From positions 1-25,922 of the forward strand of contig CAMOEU010000001.1 in the NCBI GenBank assembly GCA_946612575.1: DNA of 25,922 bases, written 5' to 3'. The position numbers and the translations under genes are program-made. Source of the DNA: an uncultured Clostridia bacterium. Lineage in GTDB: Bacteria > Bacillota > Clostridia > Christensenellales > UBA1242. Below the pieces are notes generated by a model. That model saw nothing but the letters and a program-made list of their open reading frames with translations. It was not told where the DNA came from and did no database searches. Of the stretch, positions 2,167-19,100 are shown piece after piece. Within the stretch, counting starts at the first letter, position 1; every line of letters starts with the position of its first letter.

Positions 2167-3045
2167 GTGAAGACTAATCAAACAAAAGAACAGAATTTGA
2201 TAACTTTTTCTGGGGACAACAGTCAACTTTTTTGCAGAATAAAAATTGATGACCCTTTTGCAAACAAACTTACCTTGCTTGTTCCAGAAACACATAATGC
2301 AATTTTGATTAAAGATGGTCAAATGCTTCAAACACTCTCTTCTGGGAAATATTTGATTGCAAAGTTTGTGGATGCGAGAGTTGATTTGGATGCGACCTTG
2401 GAAGTTTTGTTTATGTCTAAGACTGCAAAACTCAAACTTCTTTGGGGGACATCTCAAATGTTTCCGCTCAATGATCCATTTTTGGAAGAAAACTACAAAG
2501 TTGGGATGAGTGGCGATTTTGATGTTCAGATTGGTGACCCAAGAAAATGTTATTTATATCTTGTAGGCGCAAACGAAAATCTTACTTCTGACGAACTTCA
2601 AGAAAGGCTTGTTATTACGGTTGTTTCTGTTTTGGAAAATGAAACTGCTGAATATGTGCAAACAAAACAGGTTTCGTTTAACCAACTTACAGTCAAAAAG
2701 AGAGAAATTTCTTCAAAGGTTTTGACAAAGATAAATCAACAACTTATGACAGATTATGGTATTGCAGTGTTTTCGTTTAATATTGCAAACATTGTGATTG
2801 ACCCAGGTGATTATCAAAGAATGATTGCCGCAAAGAAAGGCGAGGCTGTGAAGGTTGAAACAGAACAACCACAAACAAACGAAAAAGGGTTGTTTTGCAG
2901 TGAGTGTGGAAACAAACTCAGCCGTTCGGCAAAATTCTGTGACAATTGTGGTGCAAAAGTTGGAAGTGCAAATGTTTGCAAAAATTGTGGTGTAGAAAAT
3001 TCGGCGACTGCAAAGTTTTGTGAAAATTGCGGAAATAAATTGTAA
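2167..3045 (+). CDS. SPFH/band-7 domain protein (YdjI-like) with C-terminal double zinc ribbon
   Basis: 292 aa; 'LLVPETHNAILIKDGQ', 'LKLLWGT' and 'YGIAVFSFNIANI' fit the YdjI-type SPFH fold; four CxxC motifs (CSEC, CDNC, CKNC, CENC) from nt 2896; no TM segment. Confidence 0.8.
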   Translation: MKTNQTKEQNLITFSGDNSQLFCRIKIDDPFANKLTLLVPETHNAILIKDGQMLQTLSSGKYLIAKFVDARVDLDATLEVLFMSKTAKLKLLWGTSQMFPLNDPFLEENYKVGMSGDFDVQIGDPRKCYLYLVGANENLTSDELQERLVITVVSVLENETAEYVQTKQVSFNQLTVKKREISSKVLTKINQQLMTDYGIAVFSFNIANIVIDPGDYQRMIAAKKGEAVKVETEQPQTNEKGLFCSECGNKLSRSAKFCDNCGAKVGSANVCKNCGVENSATAKFCENCGNKL

Positions 3046-3056
3046 GGAGAAAAATT

Positions 3057-3461
3057 ATGTGGGTTTTTTATGTTTTGGTTTTGCTTGCGATTTTGGGAAC
3101 AGCATTCTTCTTTATCTGGAGAGAATATCATCCAAGAAAGGAAGATGACACAATCGGAAGCAGAGGAGTGCTTAAAAACAAGAAGTCTATTGAAAATATG
3201 GTTGCAAATGTTGAGAGTATAATTGTTTATGCAAATGGAAACGACACACTCTGCAACAGACTTGTTGATGTTAAGGACAATATAAAGTTTTTCAATCCAA
3301 CAACAAATCAAAAAGCAATTGCAGTTGACACAAAACTTGCAGCAAGACTTGATGACTTGAAAATTGCGGTTGCAAAAGACAACACTCAAGAGACTTGCTT
3401 CAGACTTTTGGAAGAGGTCGAGGCATATATTGTTCAAAGAAAAAAGGAAGAACAAAACTAG
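3057..3461 (+). CDS. N-terminally membrane-anchored helical hypothetical protein
   Basis: 134 aa; AAGGAG RBS overlapping the upstream stop; TM helix at residues ~2-21 followed by amphipathic helices. Confidence 0.75.
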   Translation: MWVFYVLVLLAILGTAFFFIWREYHPRKEDDTIGSRGVLKNKKSIENMVANVESIIVYANGNDTLCNRLVDVKDNIKFFNPTTNQKAIAVDTKLAARLDDLKIAVAKDNTQETCFRLLEEVEAYIVQRKKEEQN

Positions 3462-3821
3462 ATGAAAAGAAGATATGAAGCATCTGATTCGTTAAATGAA
3501 GAAGATAAACTCAGGGTGGAAAAGGAACTTAGACTTGGATATCTAAATCTGGGTGAGTTGTTTTTCGAGCAAGCAAGACTAAACTTCACTCTTGCACTTC
3601 AATATGACAGCAAATGTGCTGATGCTTATTGGGGACTTATGCTTTGCAAGTTTCAAGCAAAGTCAGAAGATTTGCTTTTTGAAAATCCTGTGGTGTATAA
3701 AGATGTTGTGTTGTTGCCAGAATATGAAAAGGCAATGACATTTGCAAGTGAAGAAAAGAGAAAAATTTACGAACAAATTCTTGAAAGAATTTATGCAATA
3801 ATTAAAGGCGAGAGTTGTTAA
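3462..3821 (+). CDS. Small stand-alone TPR-like protein
   Basis: 119 aa; starts immediately after the upstream stop; TPR-like 'FFEQARLNFTLALQYDSKCADAYWGLMLC'; similar to modules in the 1277-aa protein. Confidence 0.7.
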   Translation: MKRRYEASDSLNEEDKLRVEKELRLGYLNLGELFFEQARLNFTLALQYDSKCADAYWGLMLCKFQAKSEDLLFENPVVYKDVVLLPEYEKAMTFASEEKRKIYEQILERIYAIIKGESC

Positions 3822-3832
3822 AAGGAGAGCTT

Positions 3833-4447
3833 ATGTGGTGGCCATTTAGAAGAAACAAATTTAAAAAACTCAATCGTGAAGATTTGGTGAACTCAATTTG
3901 CGAACTTGAAAGACAAGAACGAACCGTGGAAGCGGAAGTTTTGCAAAAAATCAAAGAGATTGATGCTTTGATGGAAAAGGGAAAGAAAGAAAAAAGCAAG
4001 GATTTGCAACTTTTCTATGCGAAGAAAATCACAAATCTAAACGAAGAGAAAGAAACAAGTATGCAAAGGGGAATGTATTTGCTCTACAACATTCGCCTTA
4101 TGAACAGGCTTAAGGATGCATATGATAGCAACACATTCTTCAAGACTCAAACAAAAGTGCCATTGTCAGAACTTTTGCAAGATCAAAAAGGACTTGCCAA
4201 GTTTTTGAATAAGGCTCTTGAAACAAGAATTGCAAGTGAAGATGTGCTTACAAATGCAGATGAACTTTTCACAGAAGTTCAGGCAGCTTATGATGTTTCA
4301 CAACCAATTTATGGAGTAGGCAAAACGGAAGAAGATGTGCTTTCAATTTTTGAAAAAGAAGGACAACTTCGTGATGAAGAAGGTTTGGAAGAAGAACAAA
4401 CAAAGGTCGCAACCAAAAAGAAAAAACAAATAATGGAGGAAGAATAA
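3833..4447 (+). CDS. Snf7/ESCRT-III-like coiled-coil protein A (204 aa)
   Basis: Start moved from TTG 3815 to ATG 3833 (AAGGAG RBS). Aromatic/basic N-terminus MWWPFRRNK, long helical hairpin 'ELERQERTVEAEVLQKIKEIDALMEKGKKEKSKDLQLFYAKKITNL', acidic tail; adjacent to a second Snf7-like gene and a MIT-AAA ATPase. Confidence 0.55.
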   Translation: MWWPFRRNKFKKLNREDLVNSICELERQERTVEAEVLQKIKEIDALMEKGKKEKSKDLQLFYAKKITNLNEEKETSMQRGMYLLYNIRLMNRLKDAYDSNTFFKTQTKVPLSELLQDQKGLAKFLNKALETRIASEDVLTNADELFTEVQAAYDVSQPIYGVGKTEEDVLSIFEKEGQLRDEEGLEEEQTKVATKKKKQIMEEE

Positions 4448-4448
4448 A

Positions 4449-5039
4449 ATGGGACTTTTTAAATCAAAACAACAAAAAGAACTTGAAAAGAAAATGCTTA
4501 TCAAAAGGACAATAAACACAATGAACAAGCAAATCAACCGCTTGGAAGATCAAAAACAAGTGTTTATTGAAGCTGCAAAAAAAGCAAAAGAAAAGGATTT
4601 GGAAGCACAATATAACCTTGCACTCAGTGGTTATAAAATGACTGTCCAACAACAAAGAAGAGCACAAGAAATGCTTTTGAATTTTGAAATCACAGCTCAA
4701 ATGAAAGATGTGACAATGATGACATCAGACTTTCTTCGTGGAATGAGCGAAATCAGCAAGGAAATGACAAAACTTGCTGATGCAAAAGAATTTGCAAAAA
4801 TTCAAGCTCAATTCGAACAAGCTATGGTTGCTGTTGAGACTCAAACAGACCAAATGGACAACTTTATGGAAATGAGCCAAGAGACATTCTATAATGCAGG
4901 TCGTGACAAGTCAGGAAAAATGACTGATGCAGAATTTGAGAAGTTTATTGAAGAGCAGGCTGGACTTGACACTCTTTCTGATGACAAAATCAATAGCGAA
5001 ATTGAAGAACTTAAAAAGAAGATAGAATCTGAAAACTAA
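4449..5039 (+). CDS. Snf7/ESCRT-III-like protein B (Vps2/Vps24/Did2-like, 196 aa)
   Basis: GGAGG RBS. N-terminus MGLFKSKQQK; basic N-half and acidic C-half; Met-rich segment 'FLRGMSEISKEMTKLADAKEFAKIQAQFEQAMVAVETQTDQMDNFME'; C-terminal MIM1-like helix 'DDKINSEIEELKK'. Confidence 0.7.
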   Translation: MGLFKSKQQKELEKKMLIKRTINTMNKQINRLEDQKQVFIEAAKKAKEKDLEAQYNLALSGYKMTVQQQRRAQEMLLNFEITAQMKDVTMMTSDFLRGMSEISKEMTKLADAKEFAKIQAQFEQAMVAVETQTDQMDNFMEMSQETFYNAGRDKSGKMTDAEFEKFIEEQAGLDTLSDDKINSEIEELKKKIESEN

Positions 5040-5053
5040 CAAAAGGGAAGTTT

Positions 5054-6199
5054 ATGGCAGAAAAACCAAGTATTACTGTTTTGTCTGACACATATGACCT
5101 TTATATGAAAAAGGCAAAACAAGCGAAAGAAAATGGAAATCTCTCAATTGCAAAGAGAAATTTTCTTCTTGCCAGCCAAACAATGATGGAAATGGCAAAG
5201 CAAAGTGAAGGCAAGCTTAAAGAAATCAGAATGGACAGGGCAAGAAGGCTTGTCAAACTTACTGAAAACATTGACAAAAAGCCAGAGAAAATTGAAAAGA
5301 AATCTTCTGGAGAGTCAAACGAAGAAGATGATGAAGTAAAAAAATGGCAAACAGCACAAATTCCAAACATAACATTTGCTGATGTTGCTGGGCTTGATGA
5401 TGTCAAAAAATCTATCACAATCAGAATGATAAATCCTGTGAAATATCCAGAAAAATATAAGATGTATGGTAAGAAATCTGGTGGTGGTGTGCTTTTGTAT
5501 GGACCTCCAGGAACAGGAAAAACAATGATTGCAAAAGCTATTGCAAACGAAGTTGGTGCAAAGTTTTATGCTGTCAAGGGCTCAGATATTGTGAGTAAGT
5601 GGGTTGGCGAAAGTGAGAAAAACATAAACTCTTTGTTTGAAGAAGCAAACAAGCAAGATAGAGCCATCATCTTTATTGATGAAATGGACAATTTGCTCGG
5701 GACAAGAGGTGTTGACACTCACAACGACAAAAGAGTAAACGAATTTTTGCAGCAGATTGATGGTTTTGCTGGCAGAAATCAAAACTTGCTTTTGCTTGGA
5801 GCAACAAACAGGCCTTGGGATATTGACAGTGCAGCAACAAGATCTGGAAGATTTTCCGAGAAAATTTATTTGCCACTTCCTGATGCGGCTGCAAGAAAGT
5901 TTATGATAGAAAAAAATATGAAAAATGTGCCTGTCTCAAAAGATTTTGATATTGACAAAATTGTGGAACAGACAGAAGATTATAGCGGAGCTGATATTGA
6001 AGAACTTTGCGATAGAGCAAAGGATGAACCTCTTCTTAAGGCAATCGCGACAGACAGTGTTGTTGATGTGACAAACGAAGATTTTGATAGAGTTTTGGAG
6101 AAAATGCCTCCTTCTGTCACACCAAAAGAAATCGAAAGATTTGAAAAATACAACGAAGAAGTAAACGGACTTATAAAGAAAAACAAAAAACAAGGATAA
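5054..6199 (+). CDS. MIT-domain AAA+ ATPase, Vps4/CdvC-like
   Basis: 381 aa; three-helix MIT-like N-terminus, charged linker, single AAA module with Walker A GPPGTGKT (5501-5524), pore loop SKWVGESEK, Walker B IIFIDE (5666-5683), ATNRPW, Arg-finger RSGRF and C-terminal helix PSVTPKEIERFEKY. No TM or protease domain. Confidence 0.8.
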   Translation: MAEKPSITVLSDTYDLYMKKAKQAKENGNLSIAKRNFLLASQTMMEMAKQSEGKLKEIRMDRARRLVKLTENIDKKPEKIEKKSSGESNEEDDEVKKWQTAQIPNITFADVAGLDDVKKSITIRMINPVKYPEKYKMYGKKSGGGVLLYGPPGTGKTMIAKAIANEVGAKFYAVKGSDIVSKWVGESEKNINSLFEEANKQDRAIIFIDEMDNLLGTRGVDTHNDKRVNEFLQQIDGFAGRNQNLLLLGATNRPWDIDSAATRSGRFSEKIYLPLPDAAARKFMIEKNMKNVPVSKDFDIDKIVEQTEDYSGADIEELCDRAKDEPLLKAIATDSVVDVTNEDFDRVLEKMPPSVTPKEIERFEKYNEEVNGLIKKNKKQG

Positions 6200-6201
6200 A
6201 A

Positions 6202-9200
6202 ATGAGAGAAAGGGTTTGTAAAAATTGTGGAGGAAGACAATATAAAGTTGTTGGGCAGAATATGGTCAAATGCCAGTTCTGTGGGACTCTCTATGTGGAT
6301 GAACAAGCCTCAAAAGAAGAAGAAATTTTGCTTGTTTCTGCAAACGAAAAACTTAGAGATGCAAAGTTTGCGGATGCAATTGTAGAGTTTGACAAGATTC
6401 TTTCCATATACCCAAACTCGTTTGAAGCTTTTTTTGGAAAATCTCTCGCCAAGAATAAAATTGTGTTTTACACAAACAAAAAAGGCTCGGGGAAAAGACC
6501 AAGATATTTTGGAGACAAAATCCCACAACTTTCAAATGATGATGATTTTCAATCTGCAATAAACAGTGCTCCTGAAGAAATTGAAAAGGAGTATGGTGAT
6601 ATTGCAAAGAGAGTTGAAAGAGACATAAAAAAATATTGTGAAATTGACAAGTCAAAAGGCTGTGATGTTGTCATTTTCCAAATGAGTGAAGATGGTATTG
6701 ACAAAACAGAAAAACTTGTCAAAAAACTTAATTCAAAAAAAATAGAAACATACTTTTTGCAAGAACTTGAGACAAAAGAAAATGAAGCAGAGACCTTCTA
6801 TGCTCTTTCTTGTGCAAAAGTTTTGCTTGTTGTTGCAAACAAGAAAAATGGATATAACGATAGTGATGTAAAAAATCTTATTGATAGATTCAGATATTTT
6901 ATTTCTCAAAGACAGAAATATTCTATGGGATTTGTTATTGCATATGACAACAATGTCATTGAGAAAGAAAATTTGCCACAAGAACTTGGTTTTTGCAAAA
7001 ATTATGTTGATTTCAATTCCAAAAATTTTGTGGATTATATGACTGCAAACATTGAGACTGTGATTGAAAAAACACCACAGGAAGTTGCAAAAATTGAAAC
7101 AAGAAAAGTTGAAAAAGTTGAACCTATAAAGAAAGAATATGTTGATGTTGAAAACATTACACCAGCCGAACTTGGGCATTATAAAGTTCAAAATGTTGAA
7201 GCGAAAGATGCAATAAAGACAAAGTGGATTTTCCTTAGTTTGAAAAATGCCGATTTTGAAGCGACAGAAAAACTCATTGAAGCCGAACTTGAGAAAGATC
7301 CAAACAATGCCGAAATGCTTTTTGCACAAATGCTTTGTGAAAAAAGATTAAGGACAGCAGGCGAATTTTTTGAAAGCATATCAAATTTTGATAACAAAGA
7401 GAAAATAGACAATATTCTTGCTTACTCTTCAAAAGAGTTTGCTGAGATGTTTGTTGACAACTGGGAAAGACTTATTGAGAGTATTGACAGCGATGATTGC
7501 TACAACACATATCTTCTTTATCTTGCAAAATTTGACACTCCAAACAGAGAACATTTTGTGGAGTGTGCACAAGAAGTTGCTGTTGAGACAATGAATGAAG
7601 AGCTTATTGACAATGTTTTGAAATGCTTCAAAAAAGATGAAGTTGATAAGTATGTTAAGTTTTATTTCGAACTTGCTCAAAAGAGCGACAATCAAAAATA
7701 TTATGACAAAATTCTTGAGATTGACCAAGGTCATAAGCAAAGCAATATGTCGCTGCTACTTAGAAACTTTAAGACAAATCAAGACAAACTTGAATTTAGA
7801 GACAGAGAAAAAATTGAAGATAGCCTAAAATTTTTGGATGATGATGCAAGAAGTCAGTTTGCTTTTGCTGTGATAAATCTTGTTATTCCTGTTGCATTTT
7901 TGGATTTGAAAAAGGCTGAAGAGCAGATTGATTTTTATCTTTCTTATGTTGATCCAAAAAATTATGAAATCCCATACAATATTGCAAAGAAGTTGCTTGA
8001 TGTAAATTCTTTCAGATTGGCTGAAAAATATATCGCTATTGCAATTTCAAGAAATAAAAAAGATGCGACACTTTATTGGGAGCTTTTAAAGATAAAAGCT
8101 CATTGCAAGACTGATGCTGAAGTTGTGACATCTCCAGTTGACTTGACACAATTCCCTGAATGGCAAACTTTGCTGAATTATGCAAACGATGAACAGACAG
8201 AGCAATATGCAGAAATTGTCAGCAAATCACACCTTTATAAAGGCAAAAAGAAGCAGATTGCTGAAGAACTTATTGACAAACAATCAATGATTGAGAAATT
8301 GACTGATTTCTTAAACAGAAACAACAAAATTTTGCTTGAAAATGAAGAAGAAAACGGAATTGTTTCTGTCAAAGGTTGTGAATATTTCAAGATTCAACTT
8401 TCACCATTTGAAGATTATTTAAACATTGTCAAAGATGTTGAAACTTTTGATGATTATGTTGCAATTGCATCACATATTTATCAAAGACTGTTTTTCCTTG
8501 GATTGACACTTGAAAGTTCGGTAAGTTCGATTCAGATAAATGAAAAAGGTGAAGGTCTTAAAAATGTCGAAATTGGAAGAAGTCTTTCTTTAGGTCACAA
8601 AAAACAAAAGAAAATAAAAACAAACAAAACAAAAGAAGAAAGACTTGTTGATCCGGAACTTATTGAAAGAAGAAAGAAATTTTGGAAACTTTTCTTTTTT
8701 GGATTTTTTGAGATTTTCCCTGTTTTGTTTTTGACGATTTTGTTGACAATTAACATAGGTAATTCAAAACTTGTTTATGCTTATTTTTCACAAAAAGCAA
8801 TTCTAATTATGATGCTTTATTCTGTGGTTGTAGGCTTTGGAAATCTGATTTATTATATGCTAAGAAAGAAAAAATTTGCGATAAAGAAAAAGCTTTCATT
8901 GATTTTTCTTATGATATTTGCTTTTTTGAATGTTATTCTTCTTGTAATTGGATTTTATTTGACTGATAATACAATCAGAATTTACAACGGAAATGAATTT
9001 GAAACTTTTGTAAATAATGCAACTTATTCAAATATTGAGATTGAAAATGATATTAATTTCAAAGGAAAGGAAATTTCGGTTGGAGATTTCTATGGAAAAA
9101 TTGATGGAAAAGGTTTTTCGTTAAATAATGTTGCATTGAAACAAACAGAAAACACGGCGATGATCCGTAGCAATTTTGGGACAATCAAAAATCTGAAAAT

Positions 9201-10035
9201 CAATCTTGAAACAAAAACATACAGAAATATTTCAAACTTTGCAGTGATTGCGATAAACAATTATGGAGAGATTATTGGTTGTGAAATTTCTGGAAATGTA
9301 AAAATCTATGCAAAAGATTCATTAAATTGTGGTGGATTCACAACATATCAATGTGCAGGAGAAATAACAGAATGCACTGATAATACAAATATTGAAATTG
9401 CAAACCTGAAAAAAACTGGAAAGCTTGGAAAACTTGCTGCAGTGGTGAGTGGAAAAACAAGTTTTGTAAAAAATGAAACTTATGGAAGTTTCAAAATTTC
9501 TGAAAATGAATGCGAAATGGTGTATTTTGGTGGACTTGCTGGTTATGTTGATGGAGATTTTGAATGCAAATTTGAACAAAATGCCGCAAAAACTGATATA
9601 AATGTAAATGTTTTTTCAAAAAGTTTAACGATTGGTGGGCTTTTTGGTTATTCAACAAAATCAAGCAAAAACAACTATGCCGATTTTAACATTAGTAATG
9701 TAAACACCAACAACGGAAATGTTGGCGGACTTTATGGCGAGTTTGTTTGCTACAATCCGGCTGATGCAATAGCTTTTAGTTATGCGAAGATGAATTTAAG
9801 TATCTCAATGACTGGTCATGTGGGTGGAATTGTCGGTGGAACACACGGAAGCATCAAAAATTGTTTCTTTAAGGCTAATGAGTTATTAAATATTGCTTCA
9901 GGGCAACAAATTGATATGACGACAATTTCAAATTGTATGAGCAATTTGGAAGGATATAAAAAAGCTCTTGGCTTCAGCTCAGAATATTGGAATGGTGTGA
10001 ATGAAGATTCTTCTAATTATCCAACTTTAAAATAA
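6202..10035 (+). CDS. Large membrane receptor-like protein: Zn ribbon - TPR - TIR-like - TPR region - 3 TM - extracellular GLUG-type repeat domain
   Basis: 1277 aa; CKNC...CQFC at the N-terminus; TIR-like segment at ~153-290 ('ALSCAKVLLVV...DVKNLIDRF...LPQEL'); TM helices at ~827-853, 866-887 and 898-920; C-terminal GGLAGY/GGLFGY/GGLYGE/GGIVGG repeats. Confidence 0.7.
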   Translation: MRERVCKNCGGRQYKVVGQNMVKCQFCGTLYVDEQASKEEEILLVSANEKLRDAKFADAIVEFDKILSIYPNSFEAFFGKSLAKNKIVFYTNKKGSGKRPRYFGDKIPQLSNDDDFQSAINSAPEEIEKEYGDIAKRVERDIKKYCEIDKSKGCDVVIFQMSEDGIDKTEKLVKKLNSKKIETYFLQELETKENEAETFYALSCAKVLLVVANKKNGYNDSDVKNLIDRFRYFISQRQKYSMGFVIAYDNNVIEKENLPQELGFCKNYVDFNSKNFVDYMTANIETVIEKTPQEVAKIETRKVEKVEPIKKEYVDVENITPAELGHYKVQNVEAKDAIKTKWIFLSLKNADFEATEKLIEAELEKDPNNAEMLFAQMLCEKRLRTAGEFFESISNFDNKEKIDNILAYSSKEFAEMFVDNWERLIESIDSDDCYNTYLLYLAKFDTPNREHFVECAQEVAVETMNEELIDNVLKCFKKDEVDKYVKFYFELAQKSDNQKYYDKILEIDQGHKQSNMSLLLRNFKTNQDKLEFRDREKIEDSLKFLDDDARSQFAFAVINLVIPVAFLDLKKAEEQIDFYLSYVDPKNYEIPYNIAKKLLDVNSFRLAEKYIAIAISRNKKDATLYWELLKIKAHCKTDAEVVTSPVDLTQFPEWQTLLNYANDEQTEQYAEIVSKSHLYKGKKKQIAEELIDKQSMIEKLTDFLNRNNKILLENEEENGIVSVKGCEYFKIQLSPFEDYLNIVKDVETFDDYVAIASHIYQRLFFLGLTLESSVSSIQINEKGEGLKNVEIGRSLSLGHKKQKKIKTNKTKEERLVDPELIERRKKFWKLFFFGFFEIFPVLFLTILLTINIGNSKLVYAYFSQKAILIMMLYSVVVGFGNLIYYMLRKKKFAIKKKLSLIFLMIFAFLNVILLVIGFYLTDNTIRIYNGNEFETFVNNATYSNIEIENDINFKGKEISVGDFYGKIDGKGFSLNNVALKQTENTAMIRSNFGTIKNLKINLETKTYRNISNFAVIAINNYGEIIGCEISGNVKIYAKDSLNCGGFTTYQCAGEITECTDNTNIEIANLKKTGKLGKLAAVVSGKTSFVKNETYGSFKISENECEMVYFGGLAGYVDGDFECKFEQNAAKTDINVNVFSKSLTIGGLFGYSTKSSKNNYADFNISNVNTNNGNVGGLYGEFVCYNPADAIAFSYAKMNLSISMTGHVGGIVGGTHGSIKNCFFKANELLNIASGQQIDMTTISNCMSNLEGYKKALGFSSEYWNGVNEDSSNYPTLK

Positions 10036-10067: not shown

Positions 10068-10754
10068 ATGGTCAAAAATCTATATGTGGATTGTGTTTTT
10101 CTCGTTTTTTTAATGATTGGAGCGATAAAAGGTGCTAAAAAGGGTGTTTTTGGCAGTTTTTTCAAGGTTGTAGTTTTTATTTGTTCAACAATAGCTGCGA
10201 TTTTTATCTCAAACAAAATTGTCGAATTGTGGCTTAGTGAAAGTGAGATTGGGGTTTGGCTTGAAAGTCAGATGTCTGCATTTATTAAAAATATATGTAA
10301 AAATGTTGAGACAAAAGAAGATTTTTTAAATTTTTTGCAACAAAAAAACAACATTATTGCAATAATTATGACAAAAATTATTGATAGAATTGAAATTGGA
10401 CAAGGGGATAGTTTTATTGAAACTATTTCTCAAAAAATAACTGTCATACTTGAAAAAGCGGTTGTTTTTATAATTGTTTTTCTTATTGTATATATCTTTT
10501 TGAGAAAAATAACAAGTTTTGCTGGAAAAATATCAAAAATAAGTGTAGTTGGTGGTGTTGATAAAATATTTGGTGTTTTGTTTGGTGTGGCAAAAGCAGC
10601 AATCTTCTTTGGGATTTTCTATTTTGGTGTTGGTGTTTTGTCAAATTTAGTGCAAAATCAAATTTTGACAAACTTAATGCAAAACGACAAAATGGTTAGT
10701 GTTTTATATAATATGGTATATGAAAAAACAATCAGTGTGTTTTTGCCATACTGA
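10068..10754 (+). CDS. cvpA: CvpA family (colicin V production) membrane protein
   Basis: 228 aa; 'VDCVFLVFLMIGAIKGAKKGVFGS' at the N-terminus and 'DKIFGVLFGVAK' near the C-terminus are CvpA family motifs. No clear RBS. Confidence 0.8.
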   Translation: MVKNLYVDCVFLVFLMIGAIKGAKKGVFGSFFKVVVFICSTIAAIFISNKIVELWLSESEIGVWLESQMSAFIKNICKNVETKEDFLNFLQQKNNIIAIIMTKIIDRIEIGQGDSFIETISQKITVILEKAVVFIIVFLIVYIFLRKITSFAGKISKISVVGGVDKIFGVLFGVAKAAIFFGIFYFGVGVLSNLVQNQILTNLMQNDKMVSVLYNMVYEKTISVFLPY

Positions 10755-13132: not shown

Positions 13133-16100
13133 ATGAAAAAATTTAGGATAGCATTGATGTCGATTTTTACATTGCTTCTTGGCAGTGTGCTTGTTGGATG
13201 TAATTTCAAAAAACCTGAAATTGATTTCTCAAAAGAGCAGGTTTATATTTCTGCGGGAGAAGAAGTTGATCTTAGAGGTCTTTTGAATGTGAAAGAGGTC
13301 GATGCAAAAGATGTTAGGTTTAGATTTGAAGATTCTTCACTCTTTCAAGTTTCTGAAGGAAAGATAAAAGCAAAGAGTAGAAGTGGTGAGTCTTATGTTT
13401 ATGCCACATACAACAATGATGTTTTTGCCTCAATTAAAGTTTTTGTTAAACAAAAATTCTCAACACCTAAAAACTTTTCAATGAATGAAAATGGACTTAT
13501 CTCTTGGGACAAGTCACTTGCGATTTACAGCAGTGAAACAACACCTACATTTGCAAGCTCTTATAGAGTTTATGGAACATACACTTCATACACTGGCGGG
13601 CAAGAAAACGAACCTGAAACATTTGAAGTTTTCTCAAACACAAATTCATATCAACTTGAAAACGAAGGTGTTTACAATATCAAAATTGTTGCACAAGGCA
13701 CGGACAGATTTGATGCTAGTGCAGAATATGCCGTTCAGTCATTTGGCTTTGGATATATGCCAAAAATTGCAACAGCAGATTTGATTTGGTCAAATGATGG
13801 TGTTCTTTCTTGGGAAACAACTGAGATTGAAAATGCGGAATACGAAGTTTATGTTGACGGCATTAAGGTTGTTGACAAACAATCACAAAAGAGTGCAGAC
13901 CTTTCAGAGTTGTTTGACGAGCTTCAAGCAAAAAATCATACAATCAAAGTTGTTGTTTATGATGCTGTTGGCGACAAAATGCCTACAGAAAGCGATGCAA
14001 TTTCTGTTTTGAAGTTGGCAAGTCCTGTTGCTACATATGCTTTTTCAGCAGAAAATGGTGGGCTTATTTCCTTGGGAGCAAATCCACTTATTGATCACTA
14101 TAAATTCACACTTGTTGGTGATGATGAAGAAGTTGTCACAATCGACAATGAAGAAGATGGAGTTTTGACTTCACTTGATATGATTGATGCTGGTGTTTAT
14201 TCACTTTCTATCCAAGCAATTGCCGTTGAAGGAAATTATTATCAAAGTGACAAAGTTTCTTTTGGGAAAATCTACAAACTTGAAACATTGACTATTTCAG
14301 GAACAGACAAGAATGTTGAGAATTCAAACACATTCAATCTTCTTGCAAGTGCAAATGCAAGTGTTGACACAATTCTTTCAGTTAATGTTGGGGAAACAAA
14401 AACAACTTCAATCGGGATTGAAGCTGGGGAAACAAGTGCCGAATTTGAAGTGGAAGTTCCTTCAAATGGTATTTACTCTGTTTCTGCAAAGCAATTTGCA
14501 AAGGAAGAGCAAAACACAATCTTTGGAGAAAGAGTTTATGTTTTGAATTCAAACTTGAGTGAAGCAGTTGTTGTTGAAAAACTTGAAGCAATTTCAAACA
14601 TCACTCACGAAATTGAAAGTGAAAAATCTGTTTTTGTTTTCGATGAAGTTGAAAATGCTGACAAATATGAAGTGTTTGCACTTGATGGAGAAGAGTTTGC
14701 TCTAGTTGACAGCAGTTTGTATTCTTGCGAGATTTCTCAAGGCAAGGTTAGATTTGTTTTTGATGACAAAATTGAAAACTTGAATGTTGCACAAAATGAA
14801 AAAGTGTTTACGATTAAGTTTGTTGCAAAGAAAAATGATGAAACCCTTACAATAAACTCTGCAAAACAAAAAGTTTTGACCGAACTTGATATAGCAGGAA
14901 ATGTGGAAAAAGAAAACTTAAACAAAGTTTATTCTTGGACTGCAGTGGAAAATGCAGATGCCTACAGGGTGGGAATTTACAACATTGACAAAGCTACATT
15001 TATAGCAGGACAAACAGACATTGACACGACTACACTTGACAAAAATGAAGAAGTTGTCGATACAAATTCTTATACATTTGCAAACGAAGGATATTATCTT
15101 GTCAAAGTTTTCTCACTTACTGAAAATGCAAATGAGTTTATAAACTCAACAGAGTCTTTTGACAGACTTGTTTGTGTTTCTGAAAAACTTGTTGTTGAAG
15201 ATTTTGATGTAAGTTTTGTTGGTGGAAAATATAATGTTGTGATTGAAAATAAAGACCATTTTGATAAATATGAGGTTTATCTTGATGATGTGAAGATTCT
15301 TGACACAACAGCAAGCAGTGAAGAAAACTCAACATATATTCTTGAAACAGATTTTGCTGATGAAACAAAAACTTACAAGATTGAAGTTGTTGCAAAAGCA
15401 AATGATAATGTGCTTTATGAAAATTCAGAGAAAAAGGCAGTGAGAGTTGTCAAACTTCCACAAATTGTTGGGGAAGATATTGAAATTGCAAAACAAAGCA
15501 TTGCCGTGGGCTCAGATATGAAAACAGCAACACAATCACAAGAAATGAAAGTGAGTGCTGTTGAAGGTGCAAGAGGAGTGCTTCTCTATCAAGAAACAAA
15601 CCCAGCAGAAAGAGCTGGCGGAGAGGATGCAACAACCGCAACATATGACCTTGGCACAATTGCAAACACAAACTTTGTGTTTAAGTATTTTGGTTCTGCA
15701 AAACAAGGGAATGTTTTTGTAAAGACAAATGGATATATTTATCTTGACAGTGAAGAGTCAACAATAAACATTTCTAGACTTGAAACTCCAACAAATTGTG
15801 AATATGTAAACGGAGTCTTGAAGTTTAATAATACAAACACAGCAATCACAGAATATTATGTTGTGACAATTGTGTGCAAAGGACAAGATGGAGAAAGAAG
15901 AAACATTGTTGTCGAACTTTCAACAGAAGCAAAAGCAACTTATGGAGAAAATTCTGAAGTTATTGGAAATGGCGGCGACTTTGTTTCAAATAATGTAAAT
16001 GAAGTTTCAATTTCCATTGAAGATCTCATTGAAGCTGTTTCAAATGTTTCTGATGTTGAAATCAGACAAGTTTACTCTCAAGCAGCAAGCTTTGGATTTG

Positions 16101-19100
16101 CTGTTTACAGTTATGCAAATATAGTTAACGATGATGCTGTGGTTTCGTCTTCAAACTATGCCGGCACAGCTTTGGATGCAAACACAAAAGTTGTTGTTGT
16201 GGAAAAGATGACTGCTCCAGAAATTTCTTACCAAATAATTGGAGAAAACATTGTCTTCAATTGGGATGCGGTTTCAACTGATGCTGCAGTTTCTGCACAA
16301 ACAACATATCAAATGTTTGTAAATGGAAACGAATATGGACAAGTTATTTCTGGCACTCAAACAGCAAGTTATGCTTTGAGCGAATTTGCCCTTGGAACAT
16401 ATTATACATTTGCACTCACTGCACCAAATCCAAATTATATAGAATCGAGTCTTTCAAACAAAGTTAGAATTTTTAGACTCAACAAAATTACTTCACTCAA
16501 ACTTCTTACTGGTGGGGACTATGATGGACAATTGCAATATGAATTGTCTTCACAAGAACAAGAATTTGTAGATTATGTTTTGGTTGGTGAAGAACATAAT
16601 CAAACAGGAAAAATTGAAATTTCTGCTCCAGGTGCAATTACACTTAAAGTTGTTGGAAAGAAAAATGTCGAAAGTCAAGATATGACAACAACATACATTG
16701 ACAGTGAAACAACAACTTGGACTCTCAGTCAAATGCAAACACTTAAACCAGCATTGGAAAACTTTGAATATAACAATGGTGTTTTGAGCTGGGATGAATT
16801 TGCTGAAGGAAATAATTTTGAAAACCTTAAATATGTCTTGATTTTCACTGATTCTCAAGATAATATCGTTTCTTACACAACAAATCAAAACGAAGTTTCG
16901 ATAAGTGAAACAACATTGGATGAGACATTGCAAAGACTTGTTGAAGGAAACATTGACATCTCACTTTATGCAAAACTTGAAACTTATGATGTTGTCGCTG
17001 GCGGAACAATTTATTACAGCAACAAGATAACACTTGAAAATGATTTTGAAGTTGCAAACTATCATAAATATGCAAACACACTTTCAATTTCAAAACTTCC
17101 TACTCCAGTTGTTTCGAATGTGGAATTTGTTGAAGATAGCACAAATGGAATTTACAACACTCCAAATATTGAAATAACATTTACAGGCGACTATGGAAAC
17201 GAAGCAGACTTTGTTGTTTCTTCAAACATTGATGGACAAGAAATCACAACAGAAACTGTTAAGCTTACAAAGAATGCTGATTCATATAAATATGTAATGC
17301 AAGCAGAAAAGTATAAAAACAAGTTTGCAAGCGGCAAAACGATTGTATTCAAAATTGCTGCAATCAGTGAAGAAAACATTCCTTCATCTGTGGGAAGTGT
17401 GAATGTCCTTTGTGCAAACACAATATCTGGATTTGAAATCAAAGAAGATAAAAACGGAGAAGGTCTTTCTCACTTGCTTCAAATAAATGTTGCACAAGCT
17501 GATGTTCAAAAAACTGCTGGCGGATTTGATTTGGCATTTGGGATTATTGAAAATGGCGGCTCTGAAAAATATATTCATATTCAAAAGAGTGTGTCAACAG
17601 TTTCTACAACACAAACTTTTGACATTACAGATGTGATTGAAACACATTTGGCAAATGGCGGATTCTTGACAATTTCAATTACGACCCGCTCTTATTCAAA
17701 TGCGGAAAGTGGTGTATATATTCTTGCATGTCCTACATATTACATTCTACCTAAGTATGATGTTTTGTCAGGAGTGACTCAGGCAAACATAACAAAAACT
17801 GCTGGTGGATTTGAAATTGATAAAACAGTAAATAATGAAACAACAAAATATAAAGTTGTTTATGGTGCAAATGTTTATGATGTTATTTATAAGGATGACA
17901 AATTCTATTTTGAAGTTCCAACAACTTGGGTAAATGGAAATTATGAACTTAAAATCTATGCCGTTGAAAGTGATTATATTTATTCAAAACAACTCAACTA
18001 TACATTTGTGTTAAACAGAATTGATAATGTGACAAATGTGTCAATCACAAGAGACAGCGAAGATCTTTCTGATGGAAAAATTGAATGGACAAATGTTTCT
18101 GGTGCAGCTGGATATATGCTTAGAATTTATAGTGACAACACAAGAAGCAAAGAAATAACAAGGGTTTCATCTTCTACAAATTCTTTGAAATTCAGCGAAA
18201 TCTTCACAGAAGAATTTTATGACGAACTTAGAATAAACGAAGAAGATAAAGATATTTTTGTTGGAATTGCTGCACTTGGACAAAATGAAACCGCAAACGA
18301 TTCTCAAGAATACACATTCAATGCAAAAGTTTGTGGAAATTACTTTGATGTTGAAGAAGAAATTAAACTCAACGAATATGGTTTGGTGACATTCAAAGCA
18401 ACTGCTGGAAAAACATATATCTATAGATTTGTTGACACGGCTGGACAAGTGCTTTCTGATTGGGTTGAGGTGACAGCGGAAGATGATATTGTCACAATTG
18501 ATGCAAGTGTTTTAAATAGAGATTCTTCAAACAATGTTAGACCTGCCGGAACAGTTTTTGACATTCAAATTATTGTTGTGGGAAGTTATGATGGTGACAC
18601 AATTTCATTTAACTCAAAACCAGTTTCGACAGAAGACTCTGATGTGAAATTCTTGATTAATGCTGAAATAAGTAAAATAGAATACAATTCAAGTTATGCA
18701 GAATATATCACATTTGAAATGCAAACATTTGAAGCTGCATCACAAGGTGAAGAAGACGAAGAGTCTGAAGAAGAAAGCAGTGCTATTGACATTTTGTATT
18801 ATGGTGTCGAAGCAGATGCAATCAAGACAGGAAAAGTTTCATATATAACTCCAAAGGTTTTGAAGAACAATGATGATGGAACAAGCATTTATGGATGCAA
18901 ACTTATCGATTTGATTCTTGATATGACAAGTGAAGAAAATGTTGAGAAATTTGGAGAACTTCCTTCAGGAGATACAACAATTTATTTCTGGTCATACAGA
19001 AAAGACGACGGTGAGATTTTGAATGACTACATAAATTCTCCAGCAAAAGGATATGTGATAAATCACACCGCTGATGCAAACTTTGTTGGAATAGAAAAAT

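What the first reader, a model, noticed from the sequence alone, without database searches (positions are those of the whole stretch)
4449..5039. Protein B resembles eukaryotic CHMP2/CHMP3-class ESCRT-III more than PspA and ends in a MIM1-like helix
Seen: 'MGLFKSKQQK' and 'FLRGMSEISKEMTKLADAKEFAKIQAQFEQAMVAVETQTDQMDNF'. From memory, human CHMP3 begins MGLFGKTQEK and CHMP2A has AMKGVTKAMGTMNRQLKLPQIQKIMMEFERQAEIMDMKEEMM, with matching register. The tail D-D-K-I-N-S-E-I-E-E-L-K fits MIM1 (D/E)xxLxxRLxxL(K/R) at the hydrophobic positions but has E instead of R. The MIT helix 3 of the adjacent ATPase is Arg-rich (IRMDRARRLVK), suggesting a charge-swapped interface (inference). PspA hallmarks (EDP, A-L-x-x-G-x-E-D-L-A) are absent.
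Basis: partly seen in the sequence, partly recalled or inferred. Interest (0 to 1): 0.85.

Follow-up and report, generated by a model that had tools for sequence, protein, structure and literature searches.

The report
Bacterial ESCRT-III protein with Vps4-docking tail
A gut Clostridia bacterium encodes a true relative of the ESCRT-III membrane-cutting proteins of archaea and eukaryotes; its last helix looks like, and has changed charge in step with, the docking domain of the Vps4-like ATPase encoded next door, a pairing that recent reviews say bacteria lack.

Summary
The protein has no Pfam, NCBIfam or PDB sequence hit of its own. A profile of 89 relatives finds human CHMP2A (E 9e-6) and weaker CHMP1B, CHMP3 and Vps24. 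Fifteen of the 89 relatives match Pfam Snf7 and none matches PspA_IM30.

An AlphaFold model (pLDDT 81.5) has the ESCRT-III helix order. Its best fold matches are Vps2/Did4, CHMP2A, Snf7 and an archaeal Snf7 cluster. PspA and Vipp1 rank lower.

The C-terminal helix carries a family-wide motif, D-x-(E/D)-I-(E/D)-x-(K/E/R)-L-x-x-(L/I)-(K/R). It occurs in 46 of 89 tails against 8.7 in shuffled tails. That is MIM1 with a variable position 7.

The neighbouring ATPase begins with a three-helix bundle whose best structural matches are archaeal Vps4 MIT domains. Tail position 7 (E184) and MIT helix-3 residue R64 form the strongest opposite-charge covarying pair of about 16,000 pairs scanned.

The gene order SPFH, A, B, ATPase and a TIR protein is conserved in about 100 loci. 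Binding, polymerisation and function are untested.

This scan has found the same system on other genomes many times, and two earlier follow-ups reported a co-varying charged contact. Verdict: first reading supported; a new variant of a known kind.

The parts
4449..5039 (+). Protein B, 196 aa: Snf7/CHMP-type ESCRT-III family protein (P0001). Net charge is +7 in residues 1-110 and -12 in residues 111-196.
4449..4478 (+). N-terminal segment MGLFKSKQQK (alpha-0-like). F4, K5 and K10 are nearly invariant among closer relatives. It is inferred to be a membrane-binding element.
   Evidence: the membrane role is inferred from ESCRT-III literature (PMC7619361)
4467..4775 (+). Predicted alpha1-alpha2/3 helical hairpin (residues 7-48 and 52-109), pLDDT about 90-96.
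4785..4967 (+). Predicted alpha4 (residues 113-152) and alpha5 (residues 160-173).
4980..5033 (+). C-terminal amphipathic helix (residues 178-195) with the MIM1-like motif D178-x-x-I181-x-x-E184-I185-x-x-L188-K189. The E184 codon is at 4998-5000.
5054..6199 (+). Vps4/CdvC-like AAA+ ATPase, 381 aa (P0122): MIT-like head, acidic linker, single AAA module, lid, and a Vps4_C helix.
5072..5266 (+). MIT-type three-helix bundle of the ATPase (helices 7-26, 30-50 and 53-71). The R64 codon is at 5243-5245 on helix 3.
3833..4447 (+). Protein A, 204 aa from the ATG: a helical protein that co-occurs with B, with charge polarity +5/-9. It is a possible second, very divergent ESCRT-III paralogue, not shown.
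2167..3045 (+). SPFH (Band_7_1) protein with C-terminal zinc ribbons; first gene of the conserved cassette.
3057..3821 (+). Two small conserved genes (134 aa and 119 aa) of unknown function within the cassette.
6202..10035 (+). 1277-aa TPR-containing protein. Homologues at 22-47% identity in other loci carry Pfam TIR_2. It is the last conserved gene of the cassette.

Best explanation
Protein B is a bacterial member of the Snf7/CHMP branch of the ESCRT-III superfamily, not the PspA/Vipp1 branch. I infer that it binds the inner face of the cytoplasmic membrane through its short basic/aromatic N-terminus and basic hairpin, and polymerises there, possibly together with protein A. I further infer that its acidic C-terminal part ends in a MIM1-type amphipathic helix that docks on the MIT three-helix bundle at the start of the ATPase encoded 14 nt downstream. 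The ATPase hexamer would then pull subunits out of the polymer and so remodel or recycle it, as Vps4 does. Shown by computation: homology at family level, the predicted fold, the conserved tail motif, the MIT fold, the conserved gene linkage and the charge covariation at one tail/MIT pair. Inferred only: membrane binding, polymerisation, physical docking, ATP-driven disassembly and the biological role. The cassette is accessory: it is present in 9 of 25 genomes of the genus, all of which also have FtsZ. It is regularly joined to TIR, FHA/PP2C/kinase or BrxL-like genes. The most likely role is therefore a regulated response to membrane damage or infection, not cell division.
For: Homology: the profile of 89 relatives hits CHMP2A at E 9.2e-6 over profile positions 9-149. 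Pfam Snf7 matches 15 of 89 members and PspA_IM30 matches none. Fused relatives also hit Snf7 at up to 27.3 bits. Fold: the AF2 model has pLDDT 81.5 with helices 7-48, 52-109, 113-152, 160-173 and 178-195. The top AFDB hits are Did4/Vps2 (TM 0.65) and CHMP2A (TM 0.63), with M. tuberculosis PspA at rank 23. The ESM Atlas gives an archaeal Snf7 cluster at TM 0.69, and AFDB clusters give CHMP2A/Snf7 names. Charge polarity is +7/-12. Tail: the motif is enriched 46 of 89 against 8.7 expected, and position 7 is K or R in most distant relatives. MIT: the profile of ATPase N-termini hits the MIT domains of chitin synthase (6.4e-5), VPS4B, VPS4A and Sulfolobus CdvC. The AF2 model is a three-helix bundle with pLDDT 96-98. 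The best Foldseek and VIA matches are archaeal Vps4 MITs 2w2u and 2v6y (Z 11.7 and 11.3), with VPS4A MIT at rmsd 1.5-1.8. Coupling: B lies within 150 nt of the ATPase in 76 of 97 loci, and the cassette order is conserved. Contact: tail position 7 and the residue after the helix-3 'RA' pair as E with R/K, as R with E/D, and as K with N/T/V. This pair ranks 1 of about 16,000 at three weightings and with one representative per cluster. MIM1 is known to lie along MIT helices 2 and 3 with its central Arg salt-bridged to helix 3 (PMC5141497).
Against: P0001 itself has no Pfam, NCBIfam or PDB sequence hit. Fold-search E-values are weak (0.01-1), as is usual for long helices. The window's ATPase N-terminus does not match Pfam MIT, and only 6 of 46 diverse N-termini do. 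The ATPase scores 212 bits against the NCBIfam CdvC cut-off of 650 and is as similar to Cdc48 D2. The covariation rests on about 15 effective lineages and perhaps 3-4 independent changes. The family-wise permutation p is about 0.1 and the test ignores phylogeny. R64 aligns about one turn N-terminal of the classical acidic partner, which is retained as E71, so the docking register or mode (Type 1 or another) is unresolved. No complex model, binding, polymer or phenotype data exist. In about 20 loci the ATPase is 1.5-4 kb away from B.
Confidence: 0.6

Rival explanations
1. B has the ESCRT-III fold, but its last helix is mainly an intramolecular autoinhibitory element or binds another cassette protein (SPFH, protein A or the TIR/TPR protein). 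The ATPase would then engage B, or a different substrate, in some other way.
For: The last 20 residues have pLDDT about 90 in a monomer model, which suggests the helix packs back on the core. R64 is not at the classical MIM1-Arg site. Pfam MIT is rarely matched by these N-termini. In about 20 loci B and the ATPase are not adjacent.
Against: The single strongest opposite-charge covariation between all of B and the ATPase head falls exactly on the central polar position of the motif and on helix 3. The head's best structural matches are Vps4 MIT domains.
Confidence: 0.15
2. The cassette is primarily a TIR-based immune or abortive-infection system. B and A would be the membrane-acting effector or a regulated filament, and the AAA ATPase would act as a switch rather than as a Vps4-like recycler. 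This overlaps with the best explanation on parts but differs on purpose.
For: TIR_2 proteins with TPR or LRR arrays lie in or beside the cassette in many loci, and BrxL-like and trypsin-like genes occur in others. The distribution within the genus is patchy, 9 of 25 genomes. Relatives of B are fused to FtsK-type or RuvB+NERD modules.
Against: No PADLOC model matches any cassette protein except generic AAA similarity. No copy was found in the phage or plasmid collections. No TIR hit reaches E 0.1 in the window's own 1277-aa protein.
Confidence: 0.15
3. B is a PspA/Vipp1-type bacterial stress protein that only looks CHMP-like because both are long charged helices.
For: PspA and Vipp1 structures do appear among fold matches (ranks 9, 12, 19 and 50; rank 23). 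The SPFH plus zinc-ribbon partner recalls the B. subtilis pspA-ydjGHI operon (PMC11237479).
Against: PspA_IM30 matches 0 of 89 members against 15 of 89 for Snf7. No PspA or Vipp1 chain reaches E 10 in the profile search of PDB sequences. PspA systems are not known to have a MIT-AAA partner or a MIM1-type tail.
Confidence: 0.05
4. B is an unrelated coiled-coil protein, and all the resemblances are compositional.
For: Designed helical repeat proteins and other coiled coils also appear as weak hits.
Against: The alignment to CHMP2A is collinear and near full length. Named hits are consistently ESCRT-III in four structure libraries. Linkage to a MIT-AAA ATPase is conserved.
Confidence: 0.03

Closest known systems
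Eukaryotic Vps2/CHMP2A-type (Vps2/24/46 class) ESCRT-III with a MIM1 tail bound by the Vps4 MIT domain (Type 1 mode)
   Same: Length of about 200 aa. Basic N-half and acidic C-half. The same helix order, alpha0 to alpha5 plus a terminal helix. The best sequence-profile hit is CHMP2A and the best fold hits are Did4/Vps2 and CHMP2A. The tail has the MIM1 spacing of an acidic residue at position 1, hydrophobic residues at 4, 8 and 11, and a basic residue at 12. The partner ATPase has a MIT head, one AAA module and a Vps4_C helix.
   Different: It is bacterial and too divergent for Pfam on its own. Position 7 is Glu here, Lys in most relatives and Arg in only a few. There is an extra hydrophobic residue at position 15. 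The covarying MIT residue lies about one turn before the classical acidic partner. No ESCRT-I or ESCRT-II genes are present. The partners are SPFH and TIR proteins.
Archaeal ESCRT systems outside Asgard (Makarova et al. 2024, PMC10936438): CdvB/ESCRT-III plus CdvC/Vps4, including the Main, Halo_FHA and Meth_adaptin clades
   Same: An ESCRT-III gene lies directly upstream of vps4. The best structural matches of the MIT head are Sulfolobus Vps4 MITs. [quoted passage not shown]
   Different: The host is a bacterium with FtsZ. No winged-helix (ESCRT-II-like), CdvA or adaptin-like genes were seen. A TIR-domain protein is a regular partner. Sulfolobus CdvB uses a MIM2 peptide, whereas this tail is helical and MIM1-like. 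The phylogenetic relation of the ATPases was not tested.
Bacterial VPS4-like ATPases with a TPR/multi-TM neighbour (Ravi et al. 2024, PMC11237479)
   Same: It is a Vps4-like AAA ATPase in a bacterium next to a large TPR-containing membrane protein.
   Different: That paper states that snf7 is displaced in such loci. Here two about 200-aa genes sit directly upstream, and one of them is a Snf7-family protein detectable only by profile or fold. Whether the published examples belong to the same cassette was not checked.
PspA/Vipp1 systems, especially B. subtilis pspA-ydjGHI with the SPFH protein YdjI
   Same: It belongs to the ESCRT-III superfamily, has an SPFH plus zinc-ribbon partner and has a likely envelope-stress context.
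   Different: There is no PspA_IM30 match. The system has a dedicated MIT-AAA ATPase and a docking tail, which PspA systems lack.

Membership tests
ESCRT-III, Snf7 branch (Pfam PF03357) | Significant sequence-profile match to Snf7/CHMP | tested here: met
   Met at family level only. Snf7 matches 15 of 89 relatives (best 9.6e-7). The family profile hits CHMP2A at E 9.2e-6. P0001 alone has no Pfam hit.
ESCRT-III, Snf7 branch (Pfam PF03357) | alpha1-alpha2 hairpin followed by alpha3-alpha5, with a short N-terminal membrane motif | tested here: met
   This is a prediction, not a solved structure. The AF2 helices and the fold matches to Vps2, CHMP2A, Snf7, CHMP1B and Asgard ESCRT-IIIB support it.
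ESCRT-III, Snf7 branch (Pfam PF03357) | Basic N-terminal half and acidic C-terminal half | tested here: met
   Net charge is +7 for residues 1-110 and -12 for residues 111-196.
ESCRT-III, Snf7 branch (Pfam PF03357) | Polymerises on and remodels membranes | not testable with these tools
   Needs liposome binding and electron microscopy.
PspA/Vipp1 (Pfam PF04012) | Profile match to PspA_IM30 | tested here: not met
   PspA_IM30 matches 0 of 89 members. No PspA or Vipp1 chain reaches E 10. The own genome has no PspA_IM30 match above cut-off.
MIM1 (Type 1 MIT-interacting motif), (D/E)xxLxxRLxxL(K/R) | Acidic residue at position 1, hydrophobic at 4, 8 and 11, basic at 12, in a C-terminal helix | tested here: met
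   The residues are D178, I181, I185, L188 and K189 in a predicted helix. The pattern is conserved and enriched in the family.
MIM1 (Type 1 MIT-interacting motif), (D/E)xxLxxRLxxL(K/R) | Arginine at position 7 | tested here: not met
   Position 7 is E184 in the window and its clade. In anchored relatives it is K in 20 of 48 and R in 4 of 48.
MIM1 (Type 1 MIT-interacting motif), (D/E)xxLxxRLxxL(K/R) | [quoted passage not shown] | tested here: inconclusive
   E184 and R64 (helix 3) form the top covarying charge pair, but the register is offset from the classical site. No complex model or binding assay was possible.
Vps4/CdvC ATPase | N-terminal MIT three-helix bundle | tested here: met
   The profile hits MIT domains in PDB sequences. 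The AF2 bundle matches archaeal and human Vps4 MITs best. Pfam MIT matches only 6 of 46 N-termini and not the window's own.
Vps4/CdvC ATPase | Single classical AAA module with a C-terminal Vps4_C helix | tested here: met
   AAA scores 143.9 bits, AAA_lid_3 is present, and Vps4_C scores 24.7 bits against a cut-off of 21.3.
Vps4/CdvC ATPase | Equivalog-level score to NCBIfam CdvC (NF041006) | tested here: not met
   The score is 212.5 bits against a cut-off of 650, although the alignment is full length (10-369 against 7-367). Cdc48 scores as high on the AAA part.
Vps4/CdvC ATPase | Placement inside the Vps4 clade in an AAA phylogeny | not tested
   No named reference set could be fetched.

The most novel reading that the evidence does not exclude
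The MIM1-MIT recognition code, and with it a complete ESCRT-III/Vps4 polymer-and-motor pair, operates in bacteria. In gut Christensenellales it would be wired to SPFH scaffolds and TIR-domain (or FHA/kinase) sensors as a damage- or infection-triggered membrane-remodelling system. It would have been either inherited from, or exchanged with, euryarchaeal ESCRT systems that share the SPFH/zinc-ribbon and FHA/kinase accessories.
Probability: 0.35. Interest if true: 0.85.

Novelty: new variant of a known kind. Interest (0 to 1): 0.72.

Why it matters
A 2025 review states that a Vps4-like ATPase appears absent from bacteria (PMC7619361). Makarova et al. [quoted passage not shown] Ravi et al. 2024 report that where bacteria acquired a VPS4-like ATPase, snf7 was displaced (PMC11237479).

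This locus and about 100 related ones hold a Snf7-type protein, too divergent for Pfam, directly upstream of a MIT-AAA ATPase. A docking-type tail has changed charge together with the MIT domain. If binding and disassembly are confirmed, the ESCRT-III/Vps4 working pair and its MIM-MIT code would not be an archaeal-eukaryotic invention alone.

The bacterial version would also offer a small seven-gene system for studying polymer/motor coupling. Its steady link to TIR proteins would suggest a new connection between membrane remodelling and prokaryotic immune-type signalling.

Tried and rejected
- **Single-sequence searches of P0001.** Pfam, NCBIfam, PADLOC and PDB gave nothing usable.
- **The search for related loci with the broad alignment A2.** It failed for lack of a conserved stretch. 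A narrower alignment, A4, worked.
- **Phylum-wide genome sample.** A sample of 400 genomes gave only three weak hits at about 1e-4, which I did not treat as members.
- **Protein A as a second ESCRT-III.** hhalign against the B profile gave probability 0.1% with the single sequence and 3.4% with a 19-sequence profile. The PDB profile search gave nothing. Language-model neighbours include a cluster with 16% Snf7. I left this as 'possible'.
- **Matching the helix-3 'RAR' to the VPS4 'RAE'.** I first assumed this from memory. HMMER and the structural ranges instead put 'RAR' on the earlier 'RAK' and the family's 'AE' on 'RAE'. I dropped the simple 'swap at the classical site' reading.
- **Cell-division role.** Rejected. 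FtsZ is present in all 24 other genomes of the genus, including those with the cassette. Its absence from this 86%-complete assembly is best explained by incompleteness.
- **Mobile-element origin.** There was no match in the phage or plasmid collections.
- **Complex prediction.** A tail-plus-MIT complex prediction was not possible. The structure tool folds single chains and returns no contacts, so I did not attempt a fused construct.
- **CvpA-like gene.** The gene at 10068-10754 is not part of the cassette; it is present in 1 of 102 loci.
Full report
**What is there**

The window is bacterial. It carries a lysyl-phosphatidylglycerol-synthase-type membrane protein, a bacterial PH-domain protein, a pseudouridine synthase and a translational GTPase. 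Close homologues of the finding are named Candidatus Caccovivens or 'Clostridia bacterium' MAGs. The assembly has 0.69 Mb in 100 contigs and is 86% complete.

It sits in a tight co-directional row with gaps of 11, 0, 11, 1, 14 and 2 nt:
- an SPFH protein with zinc ribbons (2167-3045)
- two small genes
- protein A (3833-4447)
- protein B (the finding)
- an AAA ATPase (5054-6199)
- a 1277-aa TPR protein (6202-10035)

**Is B an ESCRT-III protein, and of which branch?**

On its own B matches nothing in Pfam, NCBIfam, PADLOC or PDB sequences. An exhaustive search found 314 clusters of relatives at 50% identity. I aligned 89 full-length relatives of 23-53% identity as alignment A2.

- **Profile against PDB sequences.** The best hit is human CHMP2A at E 9.2e-6, collinear over profile positions 9-149. 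Weaker hits are CHMP1B, CHMP3 and Vps24. No PspA or Vipp1 chain appears up to E 10.
- **Pfam on each member.** Fifteen of the 89 match Snf7 (best 9.6e-7) and none matches PspA_IM30.
- **Predicted structure.** The AlphaFold model built on A2 has pLDDT 81.5 and helices 7-48, 52-109, 113-152, 160-173 and 178-195, which is the ESCRT-III order.
- **AFDB Swiss-Prot.** The list is led by Did4/Vps2 (TM 0.65, rmsd 4.5 over 180 residues), Vps20, CHMP2A (TM 0.63), Snf7 and CHMP2B. The first PspA is at rank 23.
- **Solved structures.** The top matches are CHMP1B, CHMP2A-CHMP3 and Asgard ESCRT-III filaments, with Vipp1 from rank 9. E-values are weak, 0.1-1.
- **ESM Atlas.** The two best shapes are a Planctomycetota cluster without a name and a Thermoplasmatota cluster in which 30% of members carry Snf7. 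Both have TM 0.69.
- **AFDB clusters.** After the family's own unnamed members come CHMP2A and Snf7 entries.
- **Charge.** The charge polarity is +7/-12.

I conclude that B belongs to the Snf7/CHMP branch, nearest the Vps2/CHMP2 type by profile. The resemblance is archaeal as much as eukaryotic.

**The tail**

In the last 35 residues, the pattern 'acidic, two residues, hydrophobic, three residues, hydrophobic, two residues, hydrophobic' occurs in 46 of 89 relatives. In 500 shuffles of the same tails it occurs in 8.7 +/- 2.7, with a maximum of 18.

Anchored on that pattern, the consensus is D1, E/D3, I4, E/D5, K/E/R7, L8, L/I11, K/E/R12, K13, K14, L/I15. This is the MIM1 spacing, (D/E)xxLxxRLxxL(K/R) (PMC5141497), with two differences. 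Position 7 is usually Lys, is Arg in a few distant clades and is Glu in the window's clade. There is also one more hydrophobic turn. In the window the residues are D178, I181, E184, I185, L188 and K189.

**The neighbouring ATPase head**

The ATPase has Pfam AAA, AAA_lid_3 and Vps4_C above threshold. It also has a full-length but sub-threshold alignment to NCBIfam CdvC, 212 bits against a cut-off of 650. Its AAA core is as similar to Cdc48 D2.

Residues 1-100 do not match Pfam MIT. Among 46 diverse N-termini only 6 do, with a best E-value of 3.4e-5, although MIT is the family matched by the most members. A profile of those N-termini (A5) hits MIT domains in PDB sequences:
- chitin synthase MIT, 6.4e-5
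- VPS4B, 0.007
- Sulfolobus CdvC (2w2u), 0.024
- VPS4A and SKD1

The AlphaFold model of residues 1-95 is a three-helix bundle (7-26, 30-50, 53-71) with pLDDT 96-98, followed by a disordered acidic linker. The best Foldseek and VIA-align matches are the MIT domains of S. acidocaldarius and S. solfataricus Vps4 (Z 11.7 and 11.3). Next come calpain-7, MITD1, yeast Vps4, VPS4A (rmsd 1.5-1.8 in Foldseek), katanin and spartin MITs. Small helical bundles give middling scores easily. The concentration of MIT entries and the sequence-profile hits together make the MIT assignment sound.

**Linkage**

A scan of one genome per species found 169 genomes with a relative. The best 80 are all Christensenellales-type gut MAGs: Caccovivens, Coproplasma, and 'Christensenella sp.' or 'Catabacter' labels.

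The table below shows how many of 102 loci contain a homologue of each window protein.

| Window protein | Loci with a homologue (of 102) |
|---|---|
| B | 102 |
| ATPase | 97 |
| A | 89 |
| SPFH | 81 |
| TPR protein | 80 |
| 134-aa gene | 74 |
| 119-aa gene | 62 |
| CvpA-like gene | 1 |

The commonest gene order is exactly that of the window, seen 52 times. B and the ATPase are within 150 nt in 76 of 97 loci. In about 20 loci, mostly Coproplasma-like, the large gene lies between them.

Distant metagenomic relatives (28-47% identity) keep B directly upstream of the AAA gene. They add the following:
- Band_7 plus zinc-ribbon genes
- TIR_2 proteins with TPR or LRR arrays
- FHA plus PP2C plus Ser/Thr kinase genes
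- BrxL-like genes, or a trypsin-like gene

Within the genus the cassette is in 9 of 25 genomes. It was not found in 16 genomes of other families of the order in that draw. FtsZ is in all 24 other genomes of the genus. The cassette is therefore accessory and is not the divisome.

**Do the tail and the MIT head co-evolve?**

For 97 B/ATPase pairs I aligned the tail and helix 3. The table compares tail position 7 with the residue following the invariant Ala63, written 'RA-x'.

| Tail position 7 | MIT residue after 'RA' | Where seen |
|---|---|---|
| E | R or K | about 85 sequences (exceptions: H in L101, L in L095) |
| Q | K | L025, L092 |
| K | N, T or V | four distant loci |
| R | E, E or D | three still more distant loci |
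| G | Q | one locus |

No pair has like charges.

I then scanned charge covariance over all 196 B positions against ATPase positions 1-85, about 16,000 pairs. E184 x R64 is the most negative pair with weighting at 60, 70 and 80% identity. At 70% it scores -0.49 against -0.34 for the runner-up. It is rank 4 at 50% weighting and rank 9 at 90%.

With one representative per 70% cluster (15 sequences) it is again rank 1 of 16,660. Permuting partners gives p = 0.0015 for this pair and about 0.1 for any pair reaching that value. The permutation ignores phylogeny, and the states are clade-structured, with perhaps three or four independent changes. I treat this as good but not conclusive evidence of a contact.

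In solved MIM1 complexes the central Arg salt-bridges acidic residues on MIT helix 3 (PMC5141497).

**Register caveat**

HMMER aligns the family's 'RA-R/K' to the earlier 'RAK' of VPS4B and the family's later 'AE' to the 'RAE' near the end of helix 3. The VIA-align ranges for VPS4A MIT give the same offset of about -3. On that register R64 lies about one turn N-terminal of the classical acidic partner, on the same helical face (positions 60, 64, 67, 71), and the classical acidic residue is retained as E71. The interface may therefore be Type-1-like with a shifted polar contact, or another helical mode. I cannot tell which.

**Protein A**

It always accompanies B and has the same size and charge polarity. 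Profile comparisons with B are not significant and its profile hits nothing in PDB sequences. Language-model neighbours include a cluster with 16% Snf7. It is a possible second subunit, unproven.

**Literature**

- A 2025 review says a Vps4-like ATPase appears absent in bacteria (PMC7619361).
- Makarova et al. [quoted passage not shown] They describe SPFH/zinc-ribbon and FHA/kinase accessories in euryarchaeal systems (PMC10936438).
- Ravi et al. 2024 note occasional bacterial Snf7 homologues. They also note transfers of VPS4-like ATPases to bacteria in which snf7 is 'displaced' by a TPR/6TM protein (PMC11237479).
- Full-text searches for a bacterial Snf7 plus Vps4 pairing, or for such a pairing with TIR or SPFH, found nothing further.

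Each half has thus been seen in bacteria. The working pair, its docking tail and the TIR link have not been reported in the library searched.

**Earlier notes of this scan**

The same cassette has been reported on many other genomes: 123 notes in at least 70 genomes. Two follow-ups reported a co-varying charged contact. A later check lowered the bold reading to about 40%, mainly because few ATPases match Pfam MIT and no binding is shown. My own count agrees with that criticism, at 6 of 46. The profile, fold and covariation evidence above addresses it in part.

**Verdict**

B is a new, divergent bacterial member of the Snf7/CHMP branch. The cassette is a new variant of the ESCRT-III/Vps4 kind. 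Mechanism and role remain inferred.

Noticed in passing
P0178, P0179, P0181, P0183-P0185, P0235, P0247, P0251, P0271 (metagenomic relatives): The B-like Snf7-type domain occurs as the N-terminal 170-190 residues of longer proteins. These are fused to FtsK/SpoIIIE-type ATPases, or to RuvB-like AAA modules followed by a NERD or TnsA-like nuclease domain. Some of these fusions reach the Pfam Snf7 threshold.
   Followed up: partly
L015:6981-10645 and L022:7898-12154: In two distant loci the cassette is followed by FHA (once fused to TIR_2), a PP2C phosphatase and a Ser/Thr kinase. The same accessory set is described for the archaeal 'Main' and 'Halo_FHA' ESCRT clades.
   Followed up: no
L025:8063-11698 and L026:8123-12585: BrxL-like (BrxL_N plus BrxL_ATPase) genes, and in L026 a trypsin-like protease, sit between the ATPase and the TIR_2 protein. 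In L025 the cassette lies directly downstream of ftsQ-like, ftsA and ftsZ genes.
   Followed up: no
L017/L018:4164-9351: A very distant version has a proteasome-family (PF00227) gene and a 72-aa gene upstream of B. A 652-aa cold-shock-domain protein lies downstream, before a TIR_2 protein.
   Followed up: no
whole assembly G000: No FtsZ (Tubulin or FtsZ_C) match in this assembly, although all 24 other genomes of the genus have one. The cause is almost certainly the incomplete assembly (86% complete, 0.69 Mb against 0.8-1.3 Mb).
   Followed up: yes
window 10068-10754: A CvpA (Colicin_V)-family membrane protein lies 32 nt after the cassette. It is not conserved with the cassette (1 of 102 loci).
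   Followed up: yes
window 13133-24238: A single 3701-aa ORF with almost no Pfam signal in its first 1000 residues (only a sub-threshold CE2_N match).
   Followed up: no
L084-L098, L102, L106 (about 20 loci): In Coproplasma-like genomes the large TPR/TIR gene lies between B and the ATPase, so the two putative partners are 1.5-4 kb apart.
   Followed up: partly
ESM Atlas neighbours of A and B: The nearest unnamed clusters are labelled mostly Planctomycetota, Chloroflexota and Lentisphaerota. This hints that the family extends well beyond Clostridia. The taxon labels rest on few members.
   Followed up: no
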